DNA of 64,000 nucleotides, from NCBI GenBank assembly GCA_964444545.1, contig CAYUHG010000004.1:4021-68020 (forward strand), written 5' to 3'. A model generated the notes under the pieces. It was not told the DNA's origin. It worked only from the letters and a program-made list of their open reading frames with translations, and ran no database searches. Positions within the stretch are counted from its first letter, which is position 1; the number at the start of each line of letters is the position of its first letter. This document shows positions 168 through 58,533 of the stretch, piece after piece. A program made the translations under genes and the position numbers. The stretch comes from an uncultured Rhizobium sp. (lineage in GTDB: Bacteria > Pseudomonadota > Alphaproteobacteria > Rickettsiales > UBA1997).

Positions 168-272
168 GAAACCCCGACTCGCTGCGCGAGCCACCCCCCT
201 TAACAGGGGGGCGATGGTTCGAGTCCTGCCCCCCTGTTAAGGGGGGTGGCCCCGCAAGGGGTCGGGGGGTTC
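168..272. repeat. Family A GC-rich nested palindromic element, copy 1 (left arm divergent)
   Basis: The sequence is gaaaccccgac..ccaccccccttaacagggggg..cccccctgttaaggggggtggccccgcaaggggtcggggggtt. It shares arms with the copies at 2961, 22283 and 32222. Confidence 0.9.
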
Positions 273-297: not shown

Positions 298-2934
298 ATG
301 TCTGACAAAAAAACCTTACAACAATACGACGCTAAAACACGCGAAAAATTCTGGCAAAACCATTGGAAAGAGCAGGGCGTTTTCACTTTTAAAAACGACA
401 AATCCAAAGCTGAAACTTTCGTAATCGATACTCCTCCGCCAACAGTTTCTGGCCTTTTGCACATGGGTCACGTTTTCTCTTACACTCAAGCAGATTTTGT
501 GGCGCGTTTCCAAAGAATGTCGGGCAAAGATGTTTTTTATCCGATGGGTTTTGATGATAACGGACTTCCAACCGAGCGTTTAGTTGAAAAAATTATCGGC
601 AAAAAAGCTGGAGTTTATGAAGCTGAAAATGGTCACGGATCTTTCGTAAAAAAATGTCGTGAAGAAGTTGAGGCAGCAGAATTAGAATTTGAAGCTTTGT
701 TCAACTCAATCGCGCTTTCAGTTGATTGGAACGAGAAATATCAAACGATCTCGCCAGAATCGCAAAAAATTTCGCAAGCCAGTTTTGTTGATTTGTGGAA
801 CAAAAAATTAGTTGAGAAAAAATTCGAACCAGTTTTTTGGGATATTTCTGACCGCACGGCTCTAGCACAGGCTGACTTGATCGACAAAGAAGTTGAAGGC
901 CAAATGAATTACATTTTCTTCGTAATCGAAGGTTCTGACGAAAAACTCGAAATCATGACTACGCGTCCCGAGCTGCTTCCAGCCTGCGTTGCGGTTATGG
1001 TTCACCCTGAAGATGAACGCTACAAACATCTTCACGGCAAAAATGCCATCACGCCACTTTTCGGCGTAAAAGTTAAAATTATCGCTGACGATTTAGTGCA
1101 ACTCGACAAAGGAACTGGCGCGGTAATGTGCTGTACTTTCGGTGATGAAACCGACATCCGTTGGTGGAAAAAACACAATCTTGAACTCAAAGTTATCGTT
1201 GGCAAAGACGGTAAAATAAATTTCGATCACGAATTAGTTGCTGGCAAAAACATCAAACAAGCTAAAGATGCCATTATCGAAGCCTTAAAAAATACTCCTT
1301 GCAAGATGGGGTCTGTGACCCCGTCTTCAGGTTCAGTTCAAGGACATGAAAGTGAGGACGGAGTTACAAACTCCGTCCTGCGTAAACAGGAAAAGATTAT
1401 TCGCGCGGTAAAATGTGCCGAGCGTTCGGGCGTGCCGATCGAGATTCTTGTGGTGCCTCAATGGTTCATCAAAGTTTTGGATAAAAAAGAATTGCTGAAG
1501 AGCAAAGCTGCTGAGTGCAATTGGTATCCTGATTACATGAAAGTGCGCATCGACCAATGGATTGATGGACTGCAATGGGATTGGTGTATTTCGCGCCAAC
1601 GTTTTTTTGGCGTAAAATTTCCGGTGTGGTATTCAAAAAGAGCGGGCGAAGAAGGTAAAATTTTAGTTGCAACCGCTGACCAACTTCCGTGCGATCCGAC
1701 AGTTGATTTACCGAAAGGTTACACTCGCGAAGAAGTGACTGCCGAAACCGACATCATGGATACTTGGGCGACTTCTTCAATTTCTCCGCAGCTTTCAAGC
1801 AAAGGAATTTCAAACGAAATTTCTTTCGATCGTGCGCGTCACGAAAAATTATTCCCAGCCGATTTGCGTCCACAAGCTCACGAAATTATTCGTACTTGGG
1901 CTTTCTACACCATTGTGAAAGCCGCACTTCATCAAAATTCAATTCCGTGGAAAAATTTGATGATCTCGGGTTGGTGCTTGGCAGCGGATAAAACCAAAAT
2001 GAGTAAATCGAAAGGCAACGTGGTTACTCCAACTTCTTTGATTGAAGAAAAAGGTTCAGACATTGTGCGTTACTGGGCGTCAACTTCGCATTTGGGAGCT
2101 GACACAGCTTACTCGGAAGAAGTGTTTAAAATTGGGCATAAATTGGTTACAAAACTCTTCAACGCGGCGAAATTTGCTTCGATGAATTTTGGTCTTTTGG
2201 ATAATTGTCATGTTGAGCGCAGCGAAACATCTCAGGAGTCTAAAGAGATCCTTCGCGATGCTCAGGATGACAAAATAAGTGCTCAGAATGACAAAATAAC
2301 CGAAAGCTCAGATCTGTGGATTCTTTCGCGTCTGCATCAAACTGTTGCCAAAGCAACTTCTGAGTTTGAACAATTCGAATATGCGCGCGCGCGTGAAGCG
2401 ATTGAACAATTTTTCTGGCACGATTTTTGCGACAATTATTTAGAAATTTGCAAAGTGCGTTCTTACGGACTTGCAGCGGAAAGGCTTGCGGGCGTTGAAT
2501 TGAGCGACTCTCAGAAAAAAGAAATCGAAGCACAACAACAAAGCGCGATTGTGACCTTACGTATTTGTTTGAATACACTTCTTAAACTATTCGCACCTTT
2601 CATTCCGCACATTTGTGACGAAATTTATTCCGTAATTTTTGAGGAAGAATTTGCTCAAACTAAGTCGATTAACGCGCGCGGAAATTGGCCGAAATTGTCA
2701 GAAAAATTCTTCAATCAAAAACATTTGGAAATTGGTGAAGCTGCGCTAGCCGTGATTTTCGAAGTGCGTAAGTTTAAATCGGAAAAAAATATTTCGATGA
2801 AAACTACTGTCGCGAAATTGGTGGTTAATTGCGAAAAAGATTTGTCGGAAATTGCTGGGGATTTGAAAAATGTTTGTAATGCGCAGGAGTTGGAGTTTGT
2901 GAAATCTGGTGCTTTGGTGGAAGTGATTCTTTAG
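298..2934 (+). CDS. valS: Valyl-tRNA synthetase, rickettsial/archaeal-like type
   Basis: 878-aa ORF with a class I HIGH-type motif (LHMGHVFSY) and KMSKS. The blocks DTPPPTVSG.LH.GHV.SYTQ.DF..RFQRM.GK..FYPMGFDDNGLPTE and CAERSG.P.EIL match my recollection of Rickettsia ValRS. Confidence 0.93.
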   Translation: MSDKKTLQQYDAKTREKFWQNHWKEQGVFTFKNDKSKAETFVIDTPPPTVSGLLHMGHVFSYTQADFVARFQRMSGKDVFYPMGFDDNGLPTERLVEKIIGKKAGVYEAENGHGSFVKKCREEVEAAELEFEALFNSIALSVDWNEKYQTISPESQKISQASFVDLWNKKLVEKKFEPVFWDISDRTALAQADLIDKEVEGQMNYIFFVIEGSDEKLEIMTTRPELLPACVAVMVHPEDERYKHLHGKNAITPLFGVKVKIIADDLVQLDKGTGAVMCCTFGDETDIRWWKKHNLELKVIVGKDGKINFDHELVAGKNIKQAKDAIIEALKNTPCKMGSVTPSSGSVQGHESEDGVTNSVLRKQEKIIRAVKCAERSGVPIEILVVPQWFIKVLDKKELLKSKAAECNWYPDYMKVRIDQWIDGLQWDWCISRQRFFGVKFPVWYSKRAGEEGKILVATADQLPCDPTVDLPKGYTREEVTAETDIMDTWATSSISPQLSSKGISNEISFDRARHEKLFPADLRPQAHEIIRTWAFYTIVKAALHQNSIPWKNLMISGWCLAADKTKMSKSKGNVVTPTSLIEEKGSDIVRYWASTSHLGADTAYSEEVFKIGHKLVTKLFNAAKFASMNFGLLDNCHVERSETSQESKEILRDAQDDKISAQNDKITESSDLWILSRLHQTVAKATSEFEQFEYARAREAIEQFFWHDFCDNYLEICKVRSYGLAAERLAGVELSDSQKKEIEAQQQSAIVTLRICLNTLLKLFAPFIPHICDEIYSVIFEEEFAQTKSINARGNWPKLSEKFFNQKHLEIGEAALAVIFEVRKFKSEKNISMKTTVAKLVVNCEKDLSEIAGDLKNVCNAQELEFVKSGALVEVIL
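1305..1378. repeat. Family C palindromic element inserted in frame inside valS
   Basis: gatggggtctgtgaccccgtc...ggacggagttacaaactccgtcc is an inverted version of the intergenic elements at 4957 and 9778. It encodes the extra peptide ~CKMGSVTPSSGSVQGHESEDGVTNSVL. Confidence 0.75.
2206..2298. repeat. Family B palindromic element, with a duplicated 3' tail, inserted in frame inside valS
   Basis: The sequence is tgtcatgttgagcgcagcgaaacatctc...gagatccttcgcgatgctcaggatgaca plus the tail aaataagtgctcagaatgacaaaata. The same architecture occurs at 6404-6513. It encodes ~HVERSETSQESKEILRDAQDDKISAQNDKI. Confidence 0.8.
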
Positions 2935-2960: not shown

Positions 2961-3064
2961 AAACCCCCCGACCCCTGACGGGGCCACCCCCCTTAACAGG
3001 GGGGCGATGGTCTGAGTCCCGCCCCCCTGTCAAGGGGGGTGGCCCCGCAGGGGTCGGGGGGTTT
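2961..3064. repeat. Family A GC-rich nested palindromic element, copy 2
   Basis: The sequence is aaaccccccgacccctgacggggccaccccccttaacagggggg-loop-cccccctgtcaaggggggtggccccgcaggggtcggggggttt. It lies between the convergent valS and hxlR-like genes. Confidence 0.92.
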
Positions 3065-4956: not shown

Positions 4957-5047
4957 GGCTGGTCGGGGTTTGTAACCCCGATCGAAACTGTTCATATTAA
5001 AGCTTTAAGAATGAACGTGTGGACGGGGTTAAAAACCCCATCCAGCC
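4957..5047. repeat. Family C palindromic element
   Basis: ggctggtcggggtttgtaaccccgatc...gtggacggggttaaaaaccccatccagcc has terminal inverted repeats, each folding into a small hairpin. It lies upstream of the CIO-type cydA. Confidence 0.8.
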
Positions 5048-5067
5048 ATTTTATTTTGTGAATTATT

Positions 5068-6384: not shown

Positions 6385-6403
6385 TAACAAAATTGTCATC
6401 CTG

Positions 6404-6513
6404 AGCGTAGCGAAGGATCTCGTGAGCCGAGAGGAATTTCACGTAAAATCACTCTCGACTTACGAGATCCTTCGCTGCGCTCAGGATGACAAAAATAAAG
6501 TTCAGGATGACAA
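6404..6513. repeat. Family B palindromic element with a duplicated tail, lying between subunit I and II genes
   Basis: tgtcatcctgagcgtagcgaaggatctcgtga-loop-tacgagatccttcgctgcgctcaggatgaca plus the tail aaaataaagttcaggatgacaa. Confidence 0.9.
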
Positions 6514-6537
6514 TTCTAATTAACTAAAATTTTCCTT

Positions 6538-9732: not shown

Positions 9733-9777
9733 TTTTAAATTTTGACGATTTACAGATTAATGTCTTCTGGCTGGATT

Positions 9778-9873
9778 ATGGCTGGACGGGGTTTGTAACC
9801 ACGTCCACACGTTCATTTCAAATTTCAAACGAAACATGAATAATTAGATGGGGTTAAAAACCCCGTCCAGCCA
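9778..9873. repeat. Family C palindromic element
   Basis: tggctggacggggtttgtaaccacgtccacacgttcat...gatggggttaaaaaccccgtccagcca, between hisB and sodB. Confidence 0.85.
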
Positions 9874-9902
9874 TGAGTCAAGCCAAAGACCTATAATTTT
9901 TA

Positions 9903-22100: not shown

Positions 22101-22281
22101 CGGTAACATTCCAATAATCGGTAACGTTGTTGGATTATTAACTGGCGGTGAGGGTGGTGGCGTATTCGGAATTCGTTATCAATACACCAAGAAAAAAACT
22201 GACAAGGAGCCAACTTTTGAAACTAACAAAGTTTCATCTTTCGTGCCGACGACGATTAAGAATTTGTTTGATTTGATTTAG
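19117..22281 (+). CDS. AsmA/YhdP-like large envelope protein
   Basis: 1054 aa. It has a Lys-rich N-terminus, one N-terminal TM helix (ISFTILLTLSVVLAYFVILV), a long beta-rich body, and a C-terminal Gly-rich amphipathic segment (GNIPIIGNVVGLLTGGEGGGVFGIRY) typical of AsmA-like C-termini. Confidence 0.55.
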   Translation: MFRKKFRKSKKHSKKDENLLQQIGSGIEEGVKNIGQGIGDGVKNIEQKIEETLEEIGNEINREVKIVTKKIKKKIDLFYKISFTILLTLSVVLAYFVILVSTTPKSFPFVTQKIREYIKQDYGDAVTLENTYISFTRYGTLKVGVKNLKISRDLPISEKIETNFSKADKQEFLIPRLDAEFSLLNLLHSSFIPRKVKISDPEIILNDLWNAKQQETQDSSNQINAAIDVLAHIKKEKLLTKSFEIENAKFILRTPNGNKEILIKKSQIRTFAKDDVLYLSSINQLSFSKNRSDVNLNSSCQLARYNILKCDVFLVNFITNSIADLHPELKPLEQIDASLNTGVSFVVDNGKIHNVTFKADSKAGNFSFPEFFGQKMFFSDLALKGEYDNGLGIFNLSEIKADFRMHNDADIANPHSLNLKTHLNMSLLISNLKDWPNHRSDFYIKLQNAPTNELEKLWPVYLHDYGIREWVITHISEGLIRDAYARFSLVRNNEVTELEKIDAEMIFGGLKLKYSEGFPEISKINGSAKFTQKGMNIAVNSGDVLGSKIYDSRVVIDDFHAQTTMLNILGKSKGHASDSLKHADDSPKFSSEVEKYLNGNSQNVFDIRIPLDGVLSLKRAYVSVNSDITNLKNDYVKGAVTASVKKDFGSEDFNTSLNLTNSELAIKAFNIEKKLGAEGGLSLAINFPSEKEIALKNISLWKKEVVAVGKKSQIVNAKISGDFKADITPFSITSANIKNENFGRNSYVISYTTDKKTSMQKLLIHGQVLDLAPMIQSKFAGFSGGGKIYGSSMVQVALDNLLLANSKAIKSFSLGLKCVNQFCYSGGAIGSYNKRGQSLMLRLSKKPEEKFSTIEGQITDVGYLAEALGISKIISGGNAQVKLQNKIVNKKLVLDGEIDLDDSITIYENPTVKRLATNDLFSKVRDKIFSEDKTIFNSMKIQFSLSDGVLDIASLIANNYKIGITAKGQVDLKNDAYQIKGMIVPGFIINNLFGIGNIPIIGNVVGLLTGGEGGGVFGIRYQYTKKKTDKEPTFETNKVSSFVPTTIKNLFDLI

Positions 22282-22282
22282 G

Positions 22283-22382
22283 AAAACCCCCGACCCCTGC
22301 GGGGCCACCCCCCTTGACAGGGGGGCAAGTTCGGCTAAGCCCCCCTGTCAAGGGGGGTGGCCCCGCAGGGGTCGGGGGGTTC
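22283..22382. repeat. Family A GC-rich nested palindromic element, copy 3
   Basis: aaaacccccgacccctgcggggccaccccccttgacaggggggcaagttcggctaagcccccctgtcaaggggggtggccccgcaggggtcggggggtt. Confidence 0.92.
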
Positions 22383-32204: not shown

Positions 32205-32221
32205 TTTAAGTTTGGCTAAAC

Positions 32222-32320
32222 AAACCCCCCGACCCCTAGCGGGGCCACCCCCCTTGACAGGGGGGCAAGTTCGGCTAAGCCCCCCTGTCAAGGGGGGTGG
32301 CCCGCAGGGTCGGGGGGTTT
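32222..32320. repeat. Family A GC-rich nested palindromic element, copy 4
   Basis: The arms match copy 3, with two 1-nt deletions in the right arm. The flanks extend the palindrome (tttggctaaa / tttagccaaa). Confidence 0.92.
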
Positions 32321-43985: not shown

Positions 43986-44072
43986 TGTCATCCTGAGCGT
44001 TAGCGAAGGATCTCTTTAGTTCGTCTTAAAATAATAAACTCACGAGATCCTTCGCTAACGCTCAGGATGACA
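43986..44072. repeat. Family B palindromic element
   Basis: tgtcatcctgagcgttagcgaaggatctc-loop-gagatccttcgctaacgctcaggatgaca, followed by a partial tail duplicate (caggataacagtaaaa). Confidence 0.9.
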
Positions 44073-44101
44073 GTAAAATCAGGATAACAGTAAAATTAAT
44101 T

Positions 44102-51081: not shown

Positions 51082-51148
51082 TTATCCTGAAAGAAGGATC
51101 TCATGAAATGTTAACTAATGAGATTATTCACTTCGTTCATGATAACAG
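51082..51148. repeat. Degenerate family B element
   Basis: ttatcctgaaagaaggatctcatga...aatgagattattcacttcgttcatgataa resembles the 58450 copy but is decayed. Confidence 0.45.
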
Positions 51149-51210: not shown

Positions 51211-51816
51211 TTAGCGTCTGCCGCCAGGTCCACCAGCACCGCCCATTGGACGACCGCCACCTTGTCCGCCACCTTGAGGTTGGCCACCGCCTTGTTGACC
51301 ACCGAATTGTTGTCCACCTTGAGGGCGTCCGCCACCTTGTGGTCCTCCTTGAGGTTGGCCACCGCCTTGTGGCCCACCGAATTGTTGACCACCTTGACCT
51401 TGTGGTCCACCTTGCTGACCACCGTTAGGGCCACCTTGACTACCTTGACGATTTTCCATTCTACGTTCGTGATTTTGCATCATCTGCTCTCTGCGATCAT
51501 GACGATTTTCTTGTCTTTGTTCACGATTTTCTGATCTTTGCTCTCTGCCTTGTTCACGATTTTCTTGTCTTTGTTCTTGGCGCTCTTGTTTTGCTTGTGC
51601 GCGATCTTGTCTTTGTTCCTGTTTAACTTCTTTGATTTCTGATCTTAATTCTTGAACTTTCTCTCTGCGGGCTTCCATTCTTTCTTTGCGAGCAGCAGCA
51701 TTAGAGTTAGTATTTGATGTAGAACCACCATTTGTTGACTCATTTTGAGCTAATGCTGGAAGAGACAAAGATGTTAAAACGGCAGAGAAAGCTGCAAGCT
51801 TTAATAAAGATTTCAT
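51211..51816 (-). CDS. Secreted low-complexity protein: Arg/Glu/Gln-rich helical segment followed by a Gly/Gln/Pro-rich repeat tail
   Basis: ATG at 51816 gives the signal peptide MKSLLKLAAFSAVLTSLSLPALA-QNE. This is followed by ERQEQRQENREQGREQRSENREQRQENR and then GGQQFGGPQGGGQPQGGPQGGGRP repeats. The longer start at 51864 is less likely. Confidence 0.7.
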   Translation of the reverse strand: MKSLLKLAAFSAVLTSLSLPALAQNESTNGGSTSNTNSNAAARKERMEARREKVQELRSEIKEVKQEQRQDRAQAKQERQEQRQENREQGREQRSENREQRQENRHDRREQMMQNHERRMENRQGSQGGPNGGQQGGPQGQGGQQFGGPQGGGQPQGGPQGGGRPQGGQQFGGQQGGGQPQGGGQGGGRPMGGAGGPGGRR

Positions 51817-51956
51817 ATTTTGAAGAATTGTTTGTTTGAGTTTGAAAACAATCACAGATTGCATTCAGGAAGCATCGTTATTTGTCGTTTTAGAGCAAGC
51901 AAGTGAAATTTATTGATTCAAAAATGCTGTGCCAAAAAGTCGCAAAAATCTTAATT

Positions 51957-57086: not shown

Positions 57087-57110
57087 AATATATTCTGATC
57101 TGTGAGTTTT
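57075..57110 (+). terminator. Rho-independent terminator of cysS
   Basis: cacagatc-14-nt loop-gatctgtg, followed by agttttt. It overlaps the cysS stop codon. Confidence 0.6.
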
Positions 57111-57113
57111 TCT

Positions 57114-57149
57114 AAATAAACCCCCCGACCCCTGGCGGGGGGTTTATTT
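57114..57149. repeat. Minimal family A-related hairpin (outer arms only)
   Basis: aaataaaccccccg-acccctgg-cggggggtttattt is a perfect 14-bp stem. It shares the aaaccccccgacccct terminus of family A. It lies between convergent cysS and the Cox11-like gene. Confidence 0.7.
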
Positions 57150-58449: not shown

Positions 58450-58533
58450 TGTCATCGTGAGCGAAGTGAAGGATCTTGTGAAATTATTTTGAAAGCCAAA
58501 CTCATGAGATGCTTCACTTTGTTCAGGATGACA
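58450..58533. repeat. Family B palindromic element (divergent copy)
   Basis: tgtcatcgtgagcgaagtgaaggatcttgtga-loop-ctcatgagatgcttcactttgttcaggatgaca. Confidence 0.85.

What the first reader, a model, noticed from the sequence alone, without database searches (positions are those of the whole stretch)
2206..2298. Second, unrelated palindromic element (family B) also inserted in frame in valS
A complete family B element lies inside valS: tgtcatgttgagcgcagcgaaacatctc...gagatccttcgcgatgctcaggatgaca. It carries the same duplicated tail seen at 6478-6513 (gctcaggatgacaaaataagt / gctcagaatgacaaaataacc).

It encodes ~30 extra residues (HVERSETSQESKEILRDAQDDKISAQNDKI) in the C-terminal half of the enzyme.

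Two different repeat families inside one essential aminoacyl-tRNA synthetase is striking. It implies either a very high element load or a permissive protein.
Basis: seen in the sequence. Interest (0 to 1): 0.65.

Follow-up and report, generated by a model that had tools for sequence, protein, structure and literature searches.

The report
Palindromic repeat inserted in-frame in valS
A short selfish hairpin repeat, of a kind found across many bacterial phyla and linked elsewhere to a small GIY-YIG nuclease, sits in frame in a linker of the essential valyl-tRNA synthetase and adds about 27 apparently tolerated residues; this is real, but it is a known kind of event.

Summary
Window 2206-2293 is a repeat copy inside valS (298-2934).

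A covariance model built only from other genomes finds both valS units at E about 5e-10. It also finds four intergenic doublets in the window.

Insert-free orthologues, and an empty allele in a 93-98% identical relative, read FDKLQENA(E/V)IT here. The net gain is 81 nt, or 27 codons. It lies in the linker between the catalytic domain and the anticodon-binding domain.

Each unit is a (T/C)GTC-tagged hairpin: GTCAT, a 5-bp stem, tandem G.A, then a GCGNAGC mini-hairpin. Six of its seven pairs covary.

The exact 24-mer occurs in at least 120 species genomes from more than 12 phyla. In three of them, inverted units bracket a roughly 100-aa GIY-YIG gene.

It therefore belongs with the CGTC-tagged REPs, which include Rickettsia RPE-4 and RPE-6 (Di Nocera 2013), and with the Ssn-related motifs (Chenal 2025). 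It matches neither paper's listed families exactly.

The ValRS site is a hot spot: 25 of 120 homologues carry inserts there. How the element moves is inferred, not shown.

Verdict: a new member of a known kind, of moderate interest.

The parts
298..2934 (+). valS, valyl-tRNA synthetase, 878 aa. It is the host gene. Pfam tRNA-synt_1 covers residues 19-604 and Anticodon_1 covers 672-838.
2190..2301 (+). Block with no counterpart in the empty alleles, which hold 31 nt here (CGACAAGTTGCAAGAAAATGCCGAGATTACT in X5). Net gain is 81 nt, or 27 codons.
2206..2233 (+). Left hairpin unit, TGTCATGTTGAGCGCAGCGAAACATCTC. Its stem is the ATGTT/AACAT variant of the usual ATCCT/AGGAT. It encodes CHVERSETS.
   Evidence: 41.0 bits, E 4e-10. 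The same variant occurs in L089 and L093 and on other contigs of the same metagenomes.
2234..2244 (+). Spacer between the two units (AGGAGTCTAAA).
   Evidence: Spacers run from 1 to about 100 nt in other copies.
2245..2272 (-). Right hairpin unit, GAGATCCTTCGCGATGCTCAGGATGACA on the + strand. The unit itself reads on the - strand. It encodes EILRDAQDD.
   Evidence: 40.6 bits, E 5e-10
2281..2293 (-). Outer half-unit, the "tail": GCTCAGAATGACA. With 2273-2280 it makes a 21-nt direct repeat of the right unit's outer end. In an about 88% identical relative, the right unit itself ends exactly here.
6394..6512 (+). Best-preserved doublet of the family. It has a tail and lies between cydA and cydB. 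As single-stranded DNA the long hairpin folds at -46.9 kcal/mol (z -13.8).
43986..44089 (+). Intergenic doublet with a 17-nt-period tail. It lies between an outer-membrane beta-barrel gene and pdxJ.
51082..51147 (+). Degenerate intergenic doublet downstream of an mgsA/rarA-like gene.
58450..58533 (+). Intergenic doublet without a tail. It starts 7 nt after the stop codon of pdxH.

Best explanation
Window 2206-2293 is a non-autonomous palindromic repeat: a head-to-head dimer of two about 28-nt hairpin units, plus a relic outer half-unit.

**The unit.** It consists of a (T/C)GTC tag, A-T, a 5-bp stem, tandem G.A, and a GCGNAGC mini-hairpin.

**The family.** It belongs to the CGTC/TGTC-tagged REP superfamily, the same broad kind as Neisseria dRS3/NTS, Rickettsia RPE-4 and RPE-6, and the Ssn-related motifs. 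In its full form, two inverted units bracket a roughly 100-aa single-domain GIY-YIG gene. Characterised relatives of that protein (Ssn) bind such hairpins as single-stranded DNA and cut just upstream.

**The insertion.** A copy landed in the inter-domain linker of ValRS. It replaced or displaced about 5 native codons, for a net gain of 27. It survives because the insert is a multiple of three, is open in this frame, and codes for a hydrophilic stretch predicted to be disordered. It is read through as part of the enzyme and drifts as a neutral passenger.

**Shown:** the identity of the repeat, the unit hairpin (by covariation), the insertion relative to empty alleles, the linker position, the hot spot, and the GIY-YIG-bracketed forms in other phyla.

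**Inferred:** that an Ssn-type nuclease is what spreads the units, that spread goes through single-stranded DNA, that the peptide is kept in the mature protein, and that it has no function.
For: **Repeat identity**
- A covariance model built without window sequences hits both valS units at E about 5e-10, plus four intergenic doublets.

**Unit hairpin**
- Across 83 units, 98.1% of cells are paired.
- 6 of 7 pairs show compensatory changes, in 51 cells.
- 0 of 500 shuffles reach this, and slid controls give 20-46% pairing.
- The valS left unit keeps the stem through ATGTT/AACAT.

**Spread**
- It is also in 42 IMG/VR contigs.

**GIY-YIG link**
- L055, L128 and L071 have a 96-110-aa PF01541-only ORF exactly between inverted units.
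- Its nearest solved structure is 1zg2, a UPF0213 protein.
- In L124 this unit is paired with a canonical NTS-like unit, CGTCATCCCCGCGCAGGCGGGGATCCAGG.

**Literature**
- NTS is CGTCATTCCCGCGMAVGCGGGAATCYRG. Ssn cuts ssDNA upstream of it, and SRM-ssnA-SRM looks like an insertion sequence (PMC11893778).
- CGTC repeats often carry TGTC instead, have A-T at the first two stem positions, and occur mostly as head-to-head dimers encoding 20-30 aa inside genes. CGTC-1 corresponds to dRS3 and RPE-6, and CGTC-4 to RPE-4. tRNA synthetase genes are among those hit (PMC3733652).

**Insertion**
- Insert-free orthologues and empty alleles in runs X5 and X16 lack it.
- Pfam places it between tRNA-synt_1 (ends at residue 604) and Anticodon_1 (starts at 672). 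The linker is 27 residues longer than in P0005.
- In the AlphaFold2 model, residues 636-665 have pLDDT below 50 and sit between helices 607-628 and 670-691.

**Neutral drift**
- P0001 and P0002 are 91% identical over conserved columns, but only about 40% identical over the insert.
- The long hairpin has decayed to -17.8 kcal/mol, against -46.9 for the intergenic copy.

**Stability and transcription**
- The identical 878-aa protein is on 11 contigs from several samples.
- Contigs from RNA-seq-labelled runs, belonging to an about 88% identical relative, run from valS into the left unit.
Against: - No GIY-YIG or Ssn-like ORF was found in the 64-kb window or on the other contigs of this organism. 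The mobilising enzyme for this genome is therefore unseen.
- Only 4 of 120 fetched loci had such a gene.
- The published degenerate SRM search string does not match this unit.
- The unit's peptides are absent from the intragenic CGTC list of PMC3733652.
- The unit's 3' tail is CTC, not the CCA consensus.
- No enzyme of this family has been shown to insert DNA; only cleavage is documented.
- The AlphaFold2 model is poor overall (mean pLDDT 56.8), so the surface-loop reading rests mainly on the domain boundaries.
- The RNA evidence comes from assembled contigs of runs whose RNA label is only guessed, and those runs may contain DNA.
Confidence: 0.8

Rival explanations
1. The same element, but spread by something other than an Ssn-type nuclease. 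Candidates are homologous recombination or gene conversion between copies, template switching at the very stable hairpin during replication, or borrowing of another transposase.
For: - No nuclease gene was found in the window.
- Di Nocera et al. found no dedicated transposase for CGTC repeats.
- There is no target-site duplication: 0 of 77 doublets at k=4.
- Native codons appear replaced rather than simply interrupted.
- Half-unit tandem copies with a period of 17-21 nt flank 12 of 217 units, against 2 of 217 in a control region. This looks like slippage or conversion.
- The window's right unit is of the ATCCT/AGGAT type, while the tail and the 88% relative's right unit are of the ATTCT/AGAAT type. 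This fits a later conversion or re-insertion.
Against: - The unit-GIY-YIG-unit architecture appears in three distant phyla.
- The published statistics point the same way: 71% of Ssn homologues have flanking SRMs, and 81% of SRM-rich genomes encode an Ssn.
- Recombination alone does not explain arrival at new, unrelated sites.
Confidence: 0.3
2. The insert has been co-opted. On this view the 27 extra residues give this ValRS a useful property, such as tRNA contact, partner binding or regulation, and are kept by selection.
For: - The insert is kept in frame in P0001, P0002, P0011 and an about 88% identical relative.
- It sits at the hinge between the catalytic and anticodon-binding domains.
Against: - The insert evolves far faster than the host protein, at about 40% against 91% identity.
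- Its length varies among relatives: net +13, +26 and +27 residues.
- Very close relatives do without it.
- The same site holds unrelated inserts in other lineages.
- It is predicted to be disordered.
Confidence: 0.08
3. The segment is a native, fast-evolving ValRS loop, or an assembly artefact, and resembles the repeat only by chance.
For: The site is naturally variable in length among homologues.
Against: - E is about 5e-10 for both units with an independent model.
- The doublet architecture and the tail are identical to those of the intergenic copies.
- Empty alleles exist.
- The same protein appears on 11 contigs from independent assemblies.
Confidence: 0.01
4. The element is removed before or after translation, in the manner of an intron, an intein or a translational bypass, so the mature enzyme lacks it.
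For: None beyond the fact that the element can fold into a hairpin.
Against: - No Rfam family matches anywhere in the window.
- There are no intein motifs: Pfam finds only synthetase domains.
- The reading frame is open and continuous.
- Contigs from RNA-labelled runs keep the left unit joined to valS.
- Rickettsia RPEs are the precedent for read-through inserts (PMC10969869).
Confidence: 0.03

Closest known systems
CGTC/TGTC-tagged REP superfamily (Di Nocera, De Gregorio and Rocco 2013, PMC3733652). It includes Neisseria dRS3 (CGTC-1) and Rickettsia conorii RPE-6 and RPE-4 (CGTC-1 and CGTC-4).
   Same: - An unpaired (C/T)GTC tag sits at one end.
- The stem starts with complementary A and T.
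- The loop is short.
- Units occur mostly as head-to-head dimers with variable 20-100 nt spacers.
- Some dimers sit in frame in known genes, including tRNA synthetase genes, and encode 20-30 aa.
- The family is commonest in Alphaproteobacteria.
- No DDE or tyrosine transposase is associated.
   Different: - The stem is interrupted by a tandem G.A pair, with a 2-bp GC clamp and a GNA triloop.
- The 3' tail is CTC, not CCA.
- Its peptides (CHPERSEGS, VILSAAKDL, EILRCAQDD) are not among those listed for families CGTC-1 to CGTC-4.
- It therefore looks like a further family of that superfamily.
NTS / Ssn-related motifs with Ssn GIY-YIG single-strand nucleases (Chenal et al. 2025, PMC11893778).
   Same: - The layout is the same: a GTCAT tag, a hairpin with a GCG-N-GC core, then TC.
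- Inverted units bracket a roughly 100-aa single-domain GIY-YIG gene (L055, L128, L071).
- One doublet, in L124, pairs this unit with an NTS-like unit.
- The motifs are enriched in symbiont-like Alphaproteobacteria.
   Different: - The published degenerate search string gives no match.
[quoted passage not shown]
- No ssn gene is seen in this window.
- Cleavage of this particular unit has not been tested.
Rickettsia palindromic elements in protein-coding genes (Ogata et al. 2000 and 2002, as summarised in PMC10969869 and PMC3733652).
   Same: - Palindromic repeats are inserted in frame into housekeeping genes of a Rickettsiales-like alphaproteobacterium.
- They are read through and appear compatible with protein function.
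   Different: - RPE-1 is longer, at about 150 bp.
- Direct sequence comparison with RPE consensus sequences could not be made here.
- This organism is an uncultured freshwater lineage.
REP/REPIN elements with RAYT transposases.
   Same: Each unit is a short imperfect palindrome, the units form inverted doublets (REPIN-like), a single-copy mobiliser is supposed to act on ssDNA hairpins, and BIME-like arrays occur (L151).
   Different: The tag is (T/C)GTC, not GTAG. The associated gene is GIY-YIG, not a HUH tyrosine transposase.
Bacterial MITEs.
   Same: The element is small and non-coding, with inverted ends. It is derived from a gene-carrying form and is mostly intergenic.
   Different: There is no target-site duplication and no DDE transposase parent. 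Each "terminal repeat" is itself a structured hairpin.

Membership tests
CGTC/TGTC-tagged REP superfamily | Unpaired (C/T)GTC tetranucleotide at one end of the hairpin | tested here: met
   GTC is invariant in A3. The base before it is T in 68 of 77 doublets and C in 6 of 77. In the valS copy both units carry TGTC.
CGTC/TGTC-tagged REP superfamily | Stem whose first two positions are complementary A and T; stem 8-9 bp; loop 4-5 nt | tested here: inconclusive
   The first two pairs are A-T in 70 of 83 units and T-A in 80 of 83. However, the 9-position stem holds two G.A mismatches, and the loop is 3-4 nt.
CGTC/TGTC-tagged REP superfamily | Short 3' tail fitting CCA | tested here: not met
   The consensus tail is CTC.
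CGTC/TGTC-tagged REP superfamily | Mostly head-to-head dimers with variable spacers | tested here: met
   94 of 139 exact units have an inverted partner within 160 nt. Spacers run from 1 to about 100 nt. All 5 window copies are such dimers.
Ssn-related motif (SRM) | Matches the published degenerate string HGTCWYN(0-2)YYVSBRHN(0-5)WNVSBRGN(0-2)RNCYNB | tested here: not met
   The window has 0 matches and the unit consensus does not match. The NTS control does match.
Ssn-related motif (SRM) | Units flank a single-domain, roughly 100-aa GIY-YIG (Ssn, cd10448) gene on both sides | tested here: met
   This is met in L055, L128 and L071, where the ORF hits PF01541 only and is 96-110 aa. Assignment to cd10448 itself could not be checked. 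No such gene lies in the window.
Ssn-related motif (SRM) | Bound as ssDNA and cut upstream by its cognate Ssn | not testable with these tools
   This needs purified protein and oligonucleotides.
Rickettsia palindromic elements | Palindromic repeat inserted in frame in a functional gene and read through | tested here: met
Rickettsia palindromic elements | Sequence similarity to a named RPE family | not tested
The peptides listed for R. conorii CGTC-1 and CGTC-4 differ from those here.
REP/RAYT | GTAG tag and a RAYT gene | tested here: not met
   The tag is TGTC. Clustering of ORFs near the units gave GIY-YIG, and no Y1 transposase cluster.
MITE | Target-site duplication flanking terminal inverted repeats | tested here: not met
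   Direct flank matches are at chance: 0 of 77 at k=4.
Intein or self-splicing intron | Splicing motifs or ribozyme structure; absence from mature RNA or protein | tested here: not met
   There is no Rfam hit, Pfam finds only synthetase domains, and the element is retained in contigs of RNA-labelled runs.

The most novel reading that the evidence does not exclude
This unit may be an unlisted fifth family of the CGTC/Ssn-motif superfamily. Its 24-nt core is identical in more than 12 phyla, which would imply recent inter-phylum spread of a GIY-YIG/hairpin module.

Its copies may also home to existing unit ends. On that reading the ValRS linker is a self-reinforcing landing pad, where repeated one-ended insertion or conversion events keep remodelling an essential enzyme in frame. 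The evidence for this is threefold:
- The tail is the relic end of an older unit.
- Unrelated lineages all place the element end flush with ...QDDK|ITE.
- Filled and empty alleles coexist within a few per cent divergence.
Probability: 0.25. Interest if true: 0.6.

Novelty: new member of a known kind. Interest (0 to 1): 0.4.

Why it matters
It extends the Rickettsia picture, selfish palindromes written into essential proteins, to an uncultured freshwater alphaproteobacterial lineage.

It also connects three literatures that are rarely joined:
- RPEs.
- CGTC-tagged REPs.
- Ssn nuclease motifs.

It gives a natural map of where ValRS tolerates 10-50 extra residues.

The presence/absence polymorphism among near-identical relatives, together with the relic half-units, offers a tractable case for asking how these hairpin repeats actually move. 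That question is still open for the whole superfamily.

Tried and rejected
**No result or not available**
- Rfam at gathering threshold found nothing in the window. No tRNA genes were found either.
- A literature search by sequence and peptide strings returned only unrelated primer hits.
- The supplements of PMC11893778 are not held, and PMC186582 is not held.

**Ideas tested and dropped**
- The published SRM regular expression does not match the unit.
- I first read the CC>GT and GG>AC changes in the valS left unit as compensatory mutations that arose in place. I dropped this because the same ATGTT/AACAT variant occurs in other genomes and on other contigs of the same metagenomes, and at this site in the about 88% relative. 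It is a subfamily, although it still supports the unit hairpin.
- I considered that native codons Q-N/D-D-A-K mimic the unit end and attract insertion. Native DNA is CAAAATGATGCTAAA or CAAGAAAACGCTGTG, only 6-7 of 9 matches to CAGRATGAC. This is weak, so I kept it only as a minor possibility. The relic-unit reading of the tail is better.
- A test for target-site duplication was negative.

**Left unresolved or limited**
- Single old insertion or several independent ones? The neighbour-joining tree pairs P0001 with P0002 but puts P0011 elsewhere. The closest relatives are empty. This is unresolved.
- The AlphaFold2 model from 33 close homologues was poor (mean pLDDT 56.8). I did not use it for fold searches.
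Full report
**1. Observation**

The ORF at 298-2934 (+) encodes an 878-aa class I synthetase.
- It is valyl-tRNA synthetase by its best PDB match, 1gax (E 8e-67).
- Pfam gives tRNA-synt_1 over residues 19-604 and Anticodon_1 over 672-838.

Related copies lie at four other places:
- 6394-6491, with a tail reaching 6512.
- 43986-44072, with a tail reaching 44089.
- 58450-58533.
- 51082-51147, which is degenerate.

To avoid circularity I built a covariance model from 71 units of other genomes only, leaving out the rare GT/AC variants.
- With filters off, it finds the valS left unit at 41.0 bits (E 4e-10).
- It finds the right unit at 40.6 bits (E 5e-10).
- It also finds the eight units of the four intergenic doublets. 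Nothing else scores below E 0.04.
- The similarity is therefore far above chance, although the E-values are rough.

**2. Anatomy**

The element is a doublet:
- Left unit, 2206-2233.
- Spacer of 11 nt.
- Right unit in inverse orientation, 2245-2272.
- Eight further bases.
- An extra copy of the right unit's outer 13 nt, at 2281-2293.

Each unit is itself a hairpin, not merely half of a long one. Its layout is TGTC, then A-T-C-C-T, G-A, G-C, a G-N-A loop, G-C, G-A, and A-G-G-A-T, followed by CTC.

On 83 units (74 from other genomes and 9 from the window), the seven proposed pairs hold up:
- They are standard pairs in 98.1% of cells.
- Six of seven pairs show changes on both sides, in 51 cells.
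- None of 500 shuffles reaches these values.
- Sliding the partner by 1-3 columns drops pairing to 20-46%.
- Stem variants seen are ATTCT/AGAAT, ATGCT/AGCAT, GTCCT/AGGAC, ACCCT/AGGGT and ATGTT/AACAT. The inner G-C pair changes to A-T.

The valS left unit carries ATGTT/AACAT, so it keeps its own stem while mismatching the right unit.

The core GCGNAGC is, from my own knowledge of Hirao and colleagues' work on d(GCGAAGC), a very stable DNA mini-hairpin with a sheared G.A pair. Nearest-neighbour folding does not capture this: it gives -2.7 kcal/mol per unit.

As single-stranded DNA the whole valS doublet folds at -17.8 kcal/mol (z -3.75). The intergenic copy at 6390-6515 folds at -46.9 kcal/mol (z -13.8). 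The genic copy is therefore decayed.

**3. The family outside the window**

They include:
- Acidobacteriota, Chloroflexota and Omnitrophota.
- Saccharibacteria and other candidate-phyla-radiation lineages.
- Clostridia, Planctomycetota and Verrucomicrobiota.
- Cyanobacteria and Bacteroidota.
- Alpha- and Gammaproteobacteria.
- Nitrospirota and Gemmatimonadota.

It also occurs in 42 IMG/VR contigs. Most copies are inverted doublets with unrelated spacers of 1 to about 100 nt.

I clustered the ORFs lying within 400 nt of the units. The only recurrent gene was a roughly 100-aa GIY-YIG protein.
- In L055 (Chloroflexota), L128 and L071 (Pedobacter) that gene lies exactly between a left and a right unit.
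- The proteins hit only PF01541.
- Their nearest solved structure is a UPF0213 protein, 1zg2.
- In L124 this unit is paired with CGTCATCCCCGCGCAGGCGGGGATCCAGG, which is a canonical NTS-like unit.

**4. What is known**

*Chenal et al. 2025 (PMC11893778).* They describe Ssn, a family of about 94-aa single-domain GIY-YIG nucleases.
- Ssn binds the hairpin repeat NTS (CGTCATTCCCGCGMAVGCGGGAATCYRG) only as single-stranded DNA and cuts just upstream.
- "Ssn-related motifs" flank 71% of ssn homologues.
- The motif-gene-motif layout looks like an insertion sequence.
- Motif-rich genomes include Rickettsia and Wolbachia.

*Di Nocera et al. 2013 (PMC3733652).* They defined the CGTC-tagged REP superfamily.
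- The tag is often TGTC.
- Stems start with A-T.
- Head-to-head dimers predominate.
- CGTC-1 corresponds to Neisseria dRS3 and to R. conorii RPE-6. CGTC-4 corresponds to RPE-4.
- Intragenic dimers encode 20-30 aa, and tRNA synthetase genes are among the targets.
- No transposase was found.

The unit studied here has the same plan and the same companion gene, but it differs in detail:
- The published degenerate string does not match it.
- Its tail is CTC rather than CCA.
- Its peptides are not in their intragenic list.

I therefore file it as a further family of a known superfamily.

**5. The insertion in ValRS**

Among 120 homologues at 63-85% identity (listed BLASTP values), lengths range from 764 to 1059 aa.
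- Insert-free proteins (P0005, P0006, P0007) read NF-DKLQENAV-ITE.
- The window reads NF-GLLDNCHVERSETSQESKEILRDAQDDKISAQNDK-ITE.

Contigs of close relatives carry an empty site, with 31 nt in place of window 2190-2301:
- Soil run X5, 98% identical upstream and 93% downstream, holds CGACAAGTTGCAAGAAAATGCCGAGATTACT.
- Run X16, about 88% identical, also holds an empty allele.
- The net gain in the window is 81 nt.

For comparison, the valS genes of P0002, P0011 and P0005 are only 83-85% identical to the window at the DNA level. The element is therefore polymorphic at short evolutionary distance.

The insert falls in the linker between the two Pfam domains. That linker is 67 residues here and 40 in P0005. 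In the 1gax alignment the insert falls between residues 591 and 604. The AlphaFold2 model is poor overall, but it predicts residues 636-665 as low-confidence coil between two helices.

The identical protein occurs on 11 contigs from several samples, so this is not an assembly accident.

**6. A hot spot**

- 25 of 120 homologues have 5 or more extra residues at this site.
- 11 of these are inserts of this hairpin kind, of several subtypes and both orientations. Their peptides include CHPERSE, CHSERSE, VTLSLSKG, VMLSLSKH and LRQAQGD.
- 8 are of the window's family C kind.
- 6 are something else.

Peptides of this hairpin kind also cluster at query positions about 210 and about 333-340.

At the DNA level, the left-to-right oriented inserts examined here (window, L006, L008, L173) end with GCTCA[GA][GA]ATGACAA[AG] directly before the Ile-Thr/Ser-Glu codons. 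In L174 one extra Leu codon intervenes.

**7. The tail**

- Read on the minus strand, the tail region is TTATTTTGTCATTCTGAGCAC followed by TTATTTTGTCATCCTGAGCAT. That is a half-unit upstream of the full unit.
- Such outward half-units, with a period of 17-21 nt, flank 12 of 217 full units in many phyla, against 2 of 217 in a control region. They can be multiple, as in L017, L027 and L102.
- In runs X15 and X16, an about 88% identical relative has the same GT/AC-type left unit at the same site. Its right unit (GAGATTCTTCGCCTTCG|GCTCAGAATGACA) ends exactly where the window's tail lies.
- The tail is therefore best read as the outer end of an older right unit, displaced by a later insertion, conversion or 21-nt duplication. 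It is not a target-site duplication. A formal test finds none: 0 of 77 doublets at k=4.

**8. History**

- A rough neighbour-joining tree pairs P0001 with P0002. The insert-free P0005-P0007 come next, and P0011 sits in a neighbouring clade.
- Together with the near-identical empty alleles, this needs either several insertions at one site or one old insertion followed by allele exchange. I could not decide between these.
- The insert is about 40% identical between P0001 and P0002, against 91% for conserved columns. It drifts freely.

**9. Mechanism**

*Shown:*
- The element is a structured-unit dimer of a pan-bacterial family.
- It is an insertion.
- It lies in a linker.
- It is kept in frame.
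- The family's gene-carrying form encodes a GIY-YIG protein.

*Inferred:*
- The units are recognised as ssDNA hairpins by an Ssn-type nuclease, and nicking upstream of the GTCAT tag starts copying or recombination into new sites.
- Only in-frame, stop-free landings in tolerant loops of essential genes survive. Two of three frames are open in each unit orientation.
- The peptide is a neutral passenger.

The weakest link is the insertion chemistry, which nobody has shown for this superfamily.

**10. Verdict**

It is an instance of a known phenomenon, with three modest additions:
- A probably unlisted unit family.
- A documented ValRS hot spot.
- Relic half-units.

Noticed in passing
window 169-271 and 2962-3064; also 22270-22363, 32209-32303, 57105-57140: GC-rich "family A" palindromes (ACCCCCCGACCCC...CCACCCCCCTTAACAGGGGGG...) in an AT-rich genome. 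Two copies, 82% alike, bracket valS on both sides (D9, D10 and D12).
   Followed up: no
window 1300-1384 (inside valS), 4957-5049, 9774-9874: Family C hairpin repeat. Its peptide (GHESEDGVTNSVL) recurs at the family B site of other ValRS homologues, such as P0024, P0113 and P0065. Both ValRS loops therefore accept both families.
   Followed up: partly
ValRS homologues P0023, P0067, P0083, P0099, P0100, P0102 (P0083 residues 394-501): Six ValRS homologues of 1019-1059 aa carry a whole DUF559/Vsr-like endonuclease domain (PF04480, E 1e-42, with PF18741) in frame inside the synthetase. It lies near the family C site.
   Followed up: partly
window 6394-6512: The best-preserved family B doublet lies inside the cydAB operon, between the cydA stop codon (6384) and the cydB start codon (6538). 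As ssDNA it can form a -46.9 kcal/mol hairpin.
   Followed up: no
window 34830-42842 (- strand), repeats 40290-41900: A giant 2670-aa ORF containing about 1.6 kb of degenerate 12-nt periodic repeats (families D1-D4).
   Followed up: no
window 51248-51397, within ORF 51211-51864 (-): A 15-nt periodic repeat (GGTTGGCCACCGCCTTG...) inside a 217-aa ORF that has no Pfam match.
   Followed up: no
L151 8560-8980 (IMG/VR contig): Five or more complete doublets arranged head to tail with an 87-nt period, joined by T-rich linkers. This is a BIME-like array, and it ends in another half-unit tail.
   Followed up: partly
L011-L130 (GTDB genomes): The 24-nt core of the unit is letter-for-letter identical in genomes of more than 12 phyla, while the spacers and flanks are unrelated. 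REP-type repeats are usually lineage-specific.
   Followed up: partly
L055 3290-3730: The unit-GIY-YIG-unit element is embedded in a longer perfect inverted repeat (GAACCAAACACCCCCCT ... AGGGGGGTGTTTGGTTC). Either its ends extend beyond the units or it landed in a palindrome.
   Followed up: no
L008 8146-8909: In the P0011 relative, an IS5-like DDE transposase (DUF4096 + DDE_Tnp_1) lies about 1 kb downstream of valS, after an intervening cation-efflux gene.
   Followed up: no
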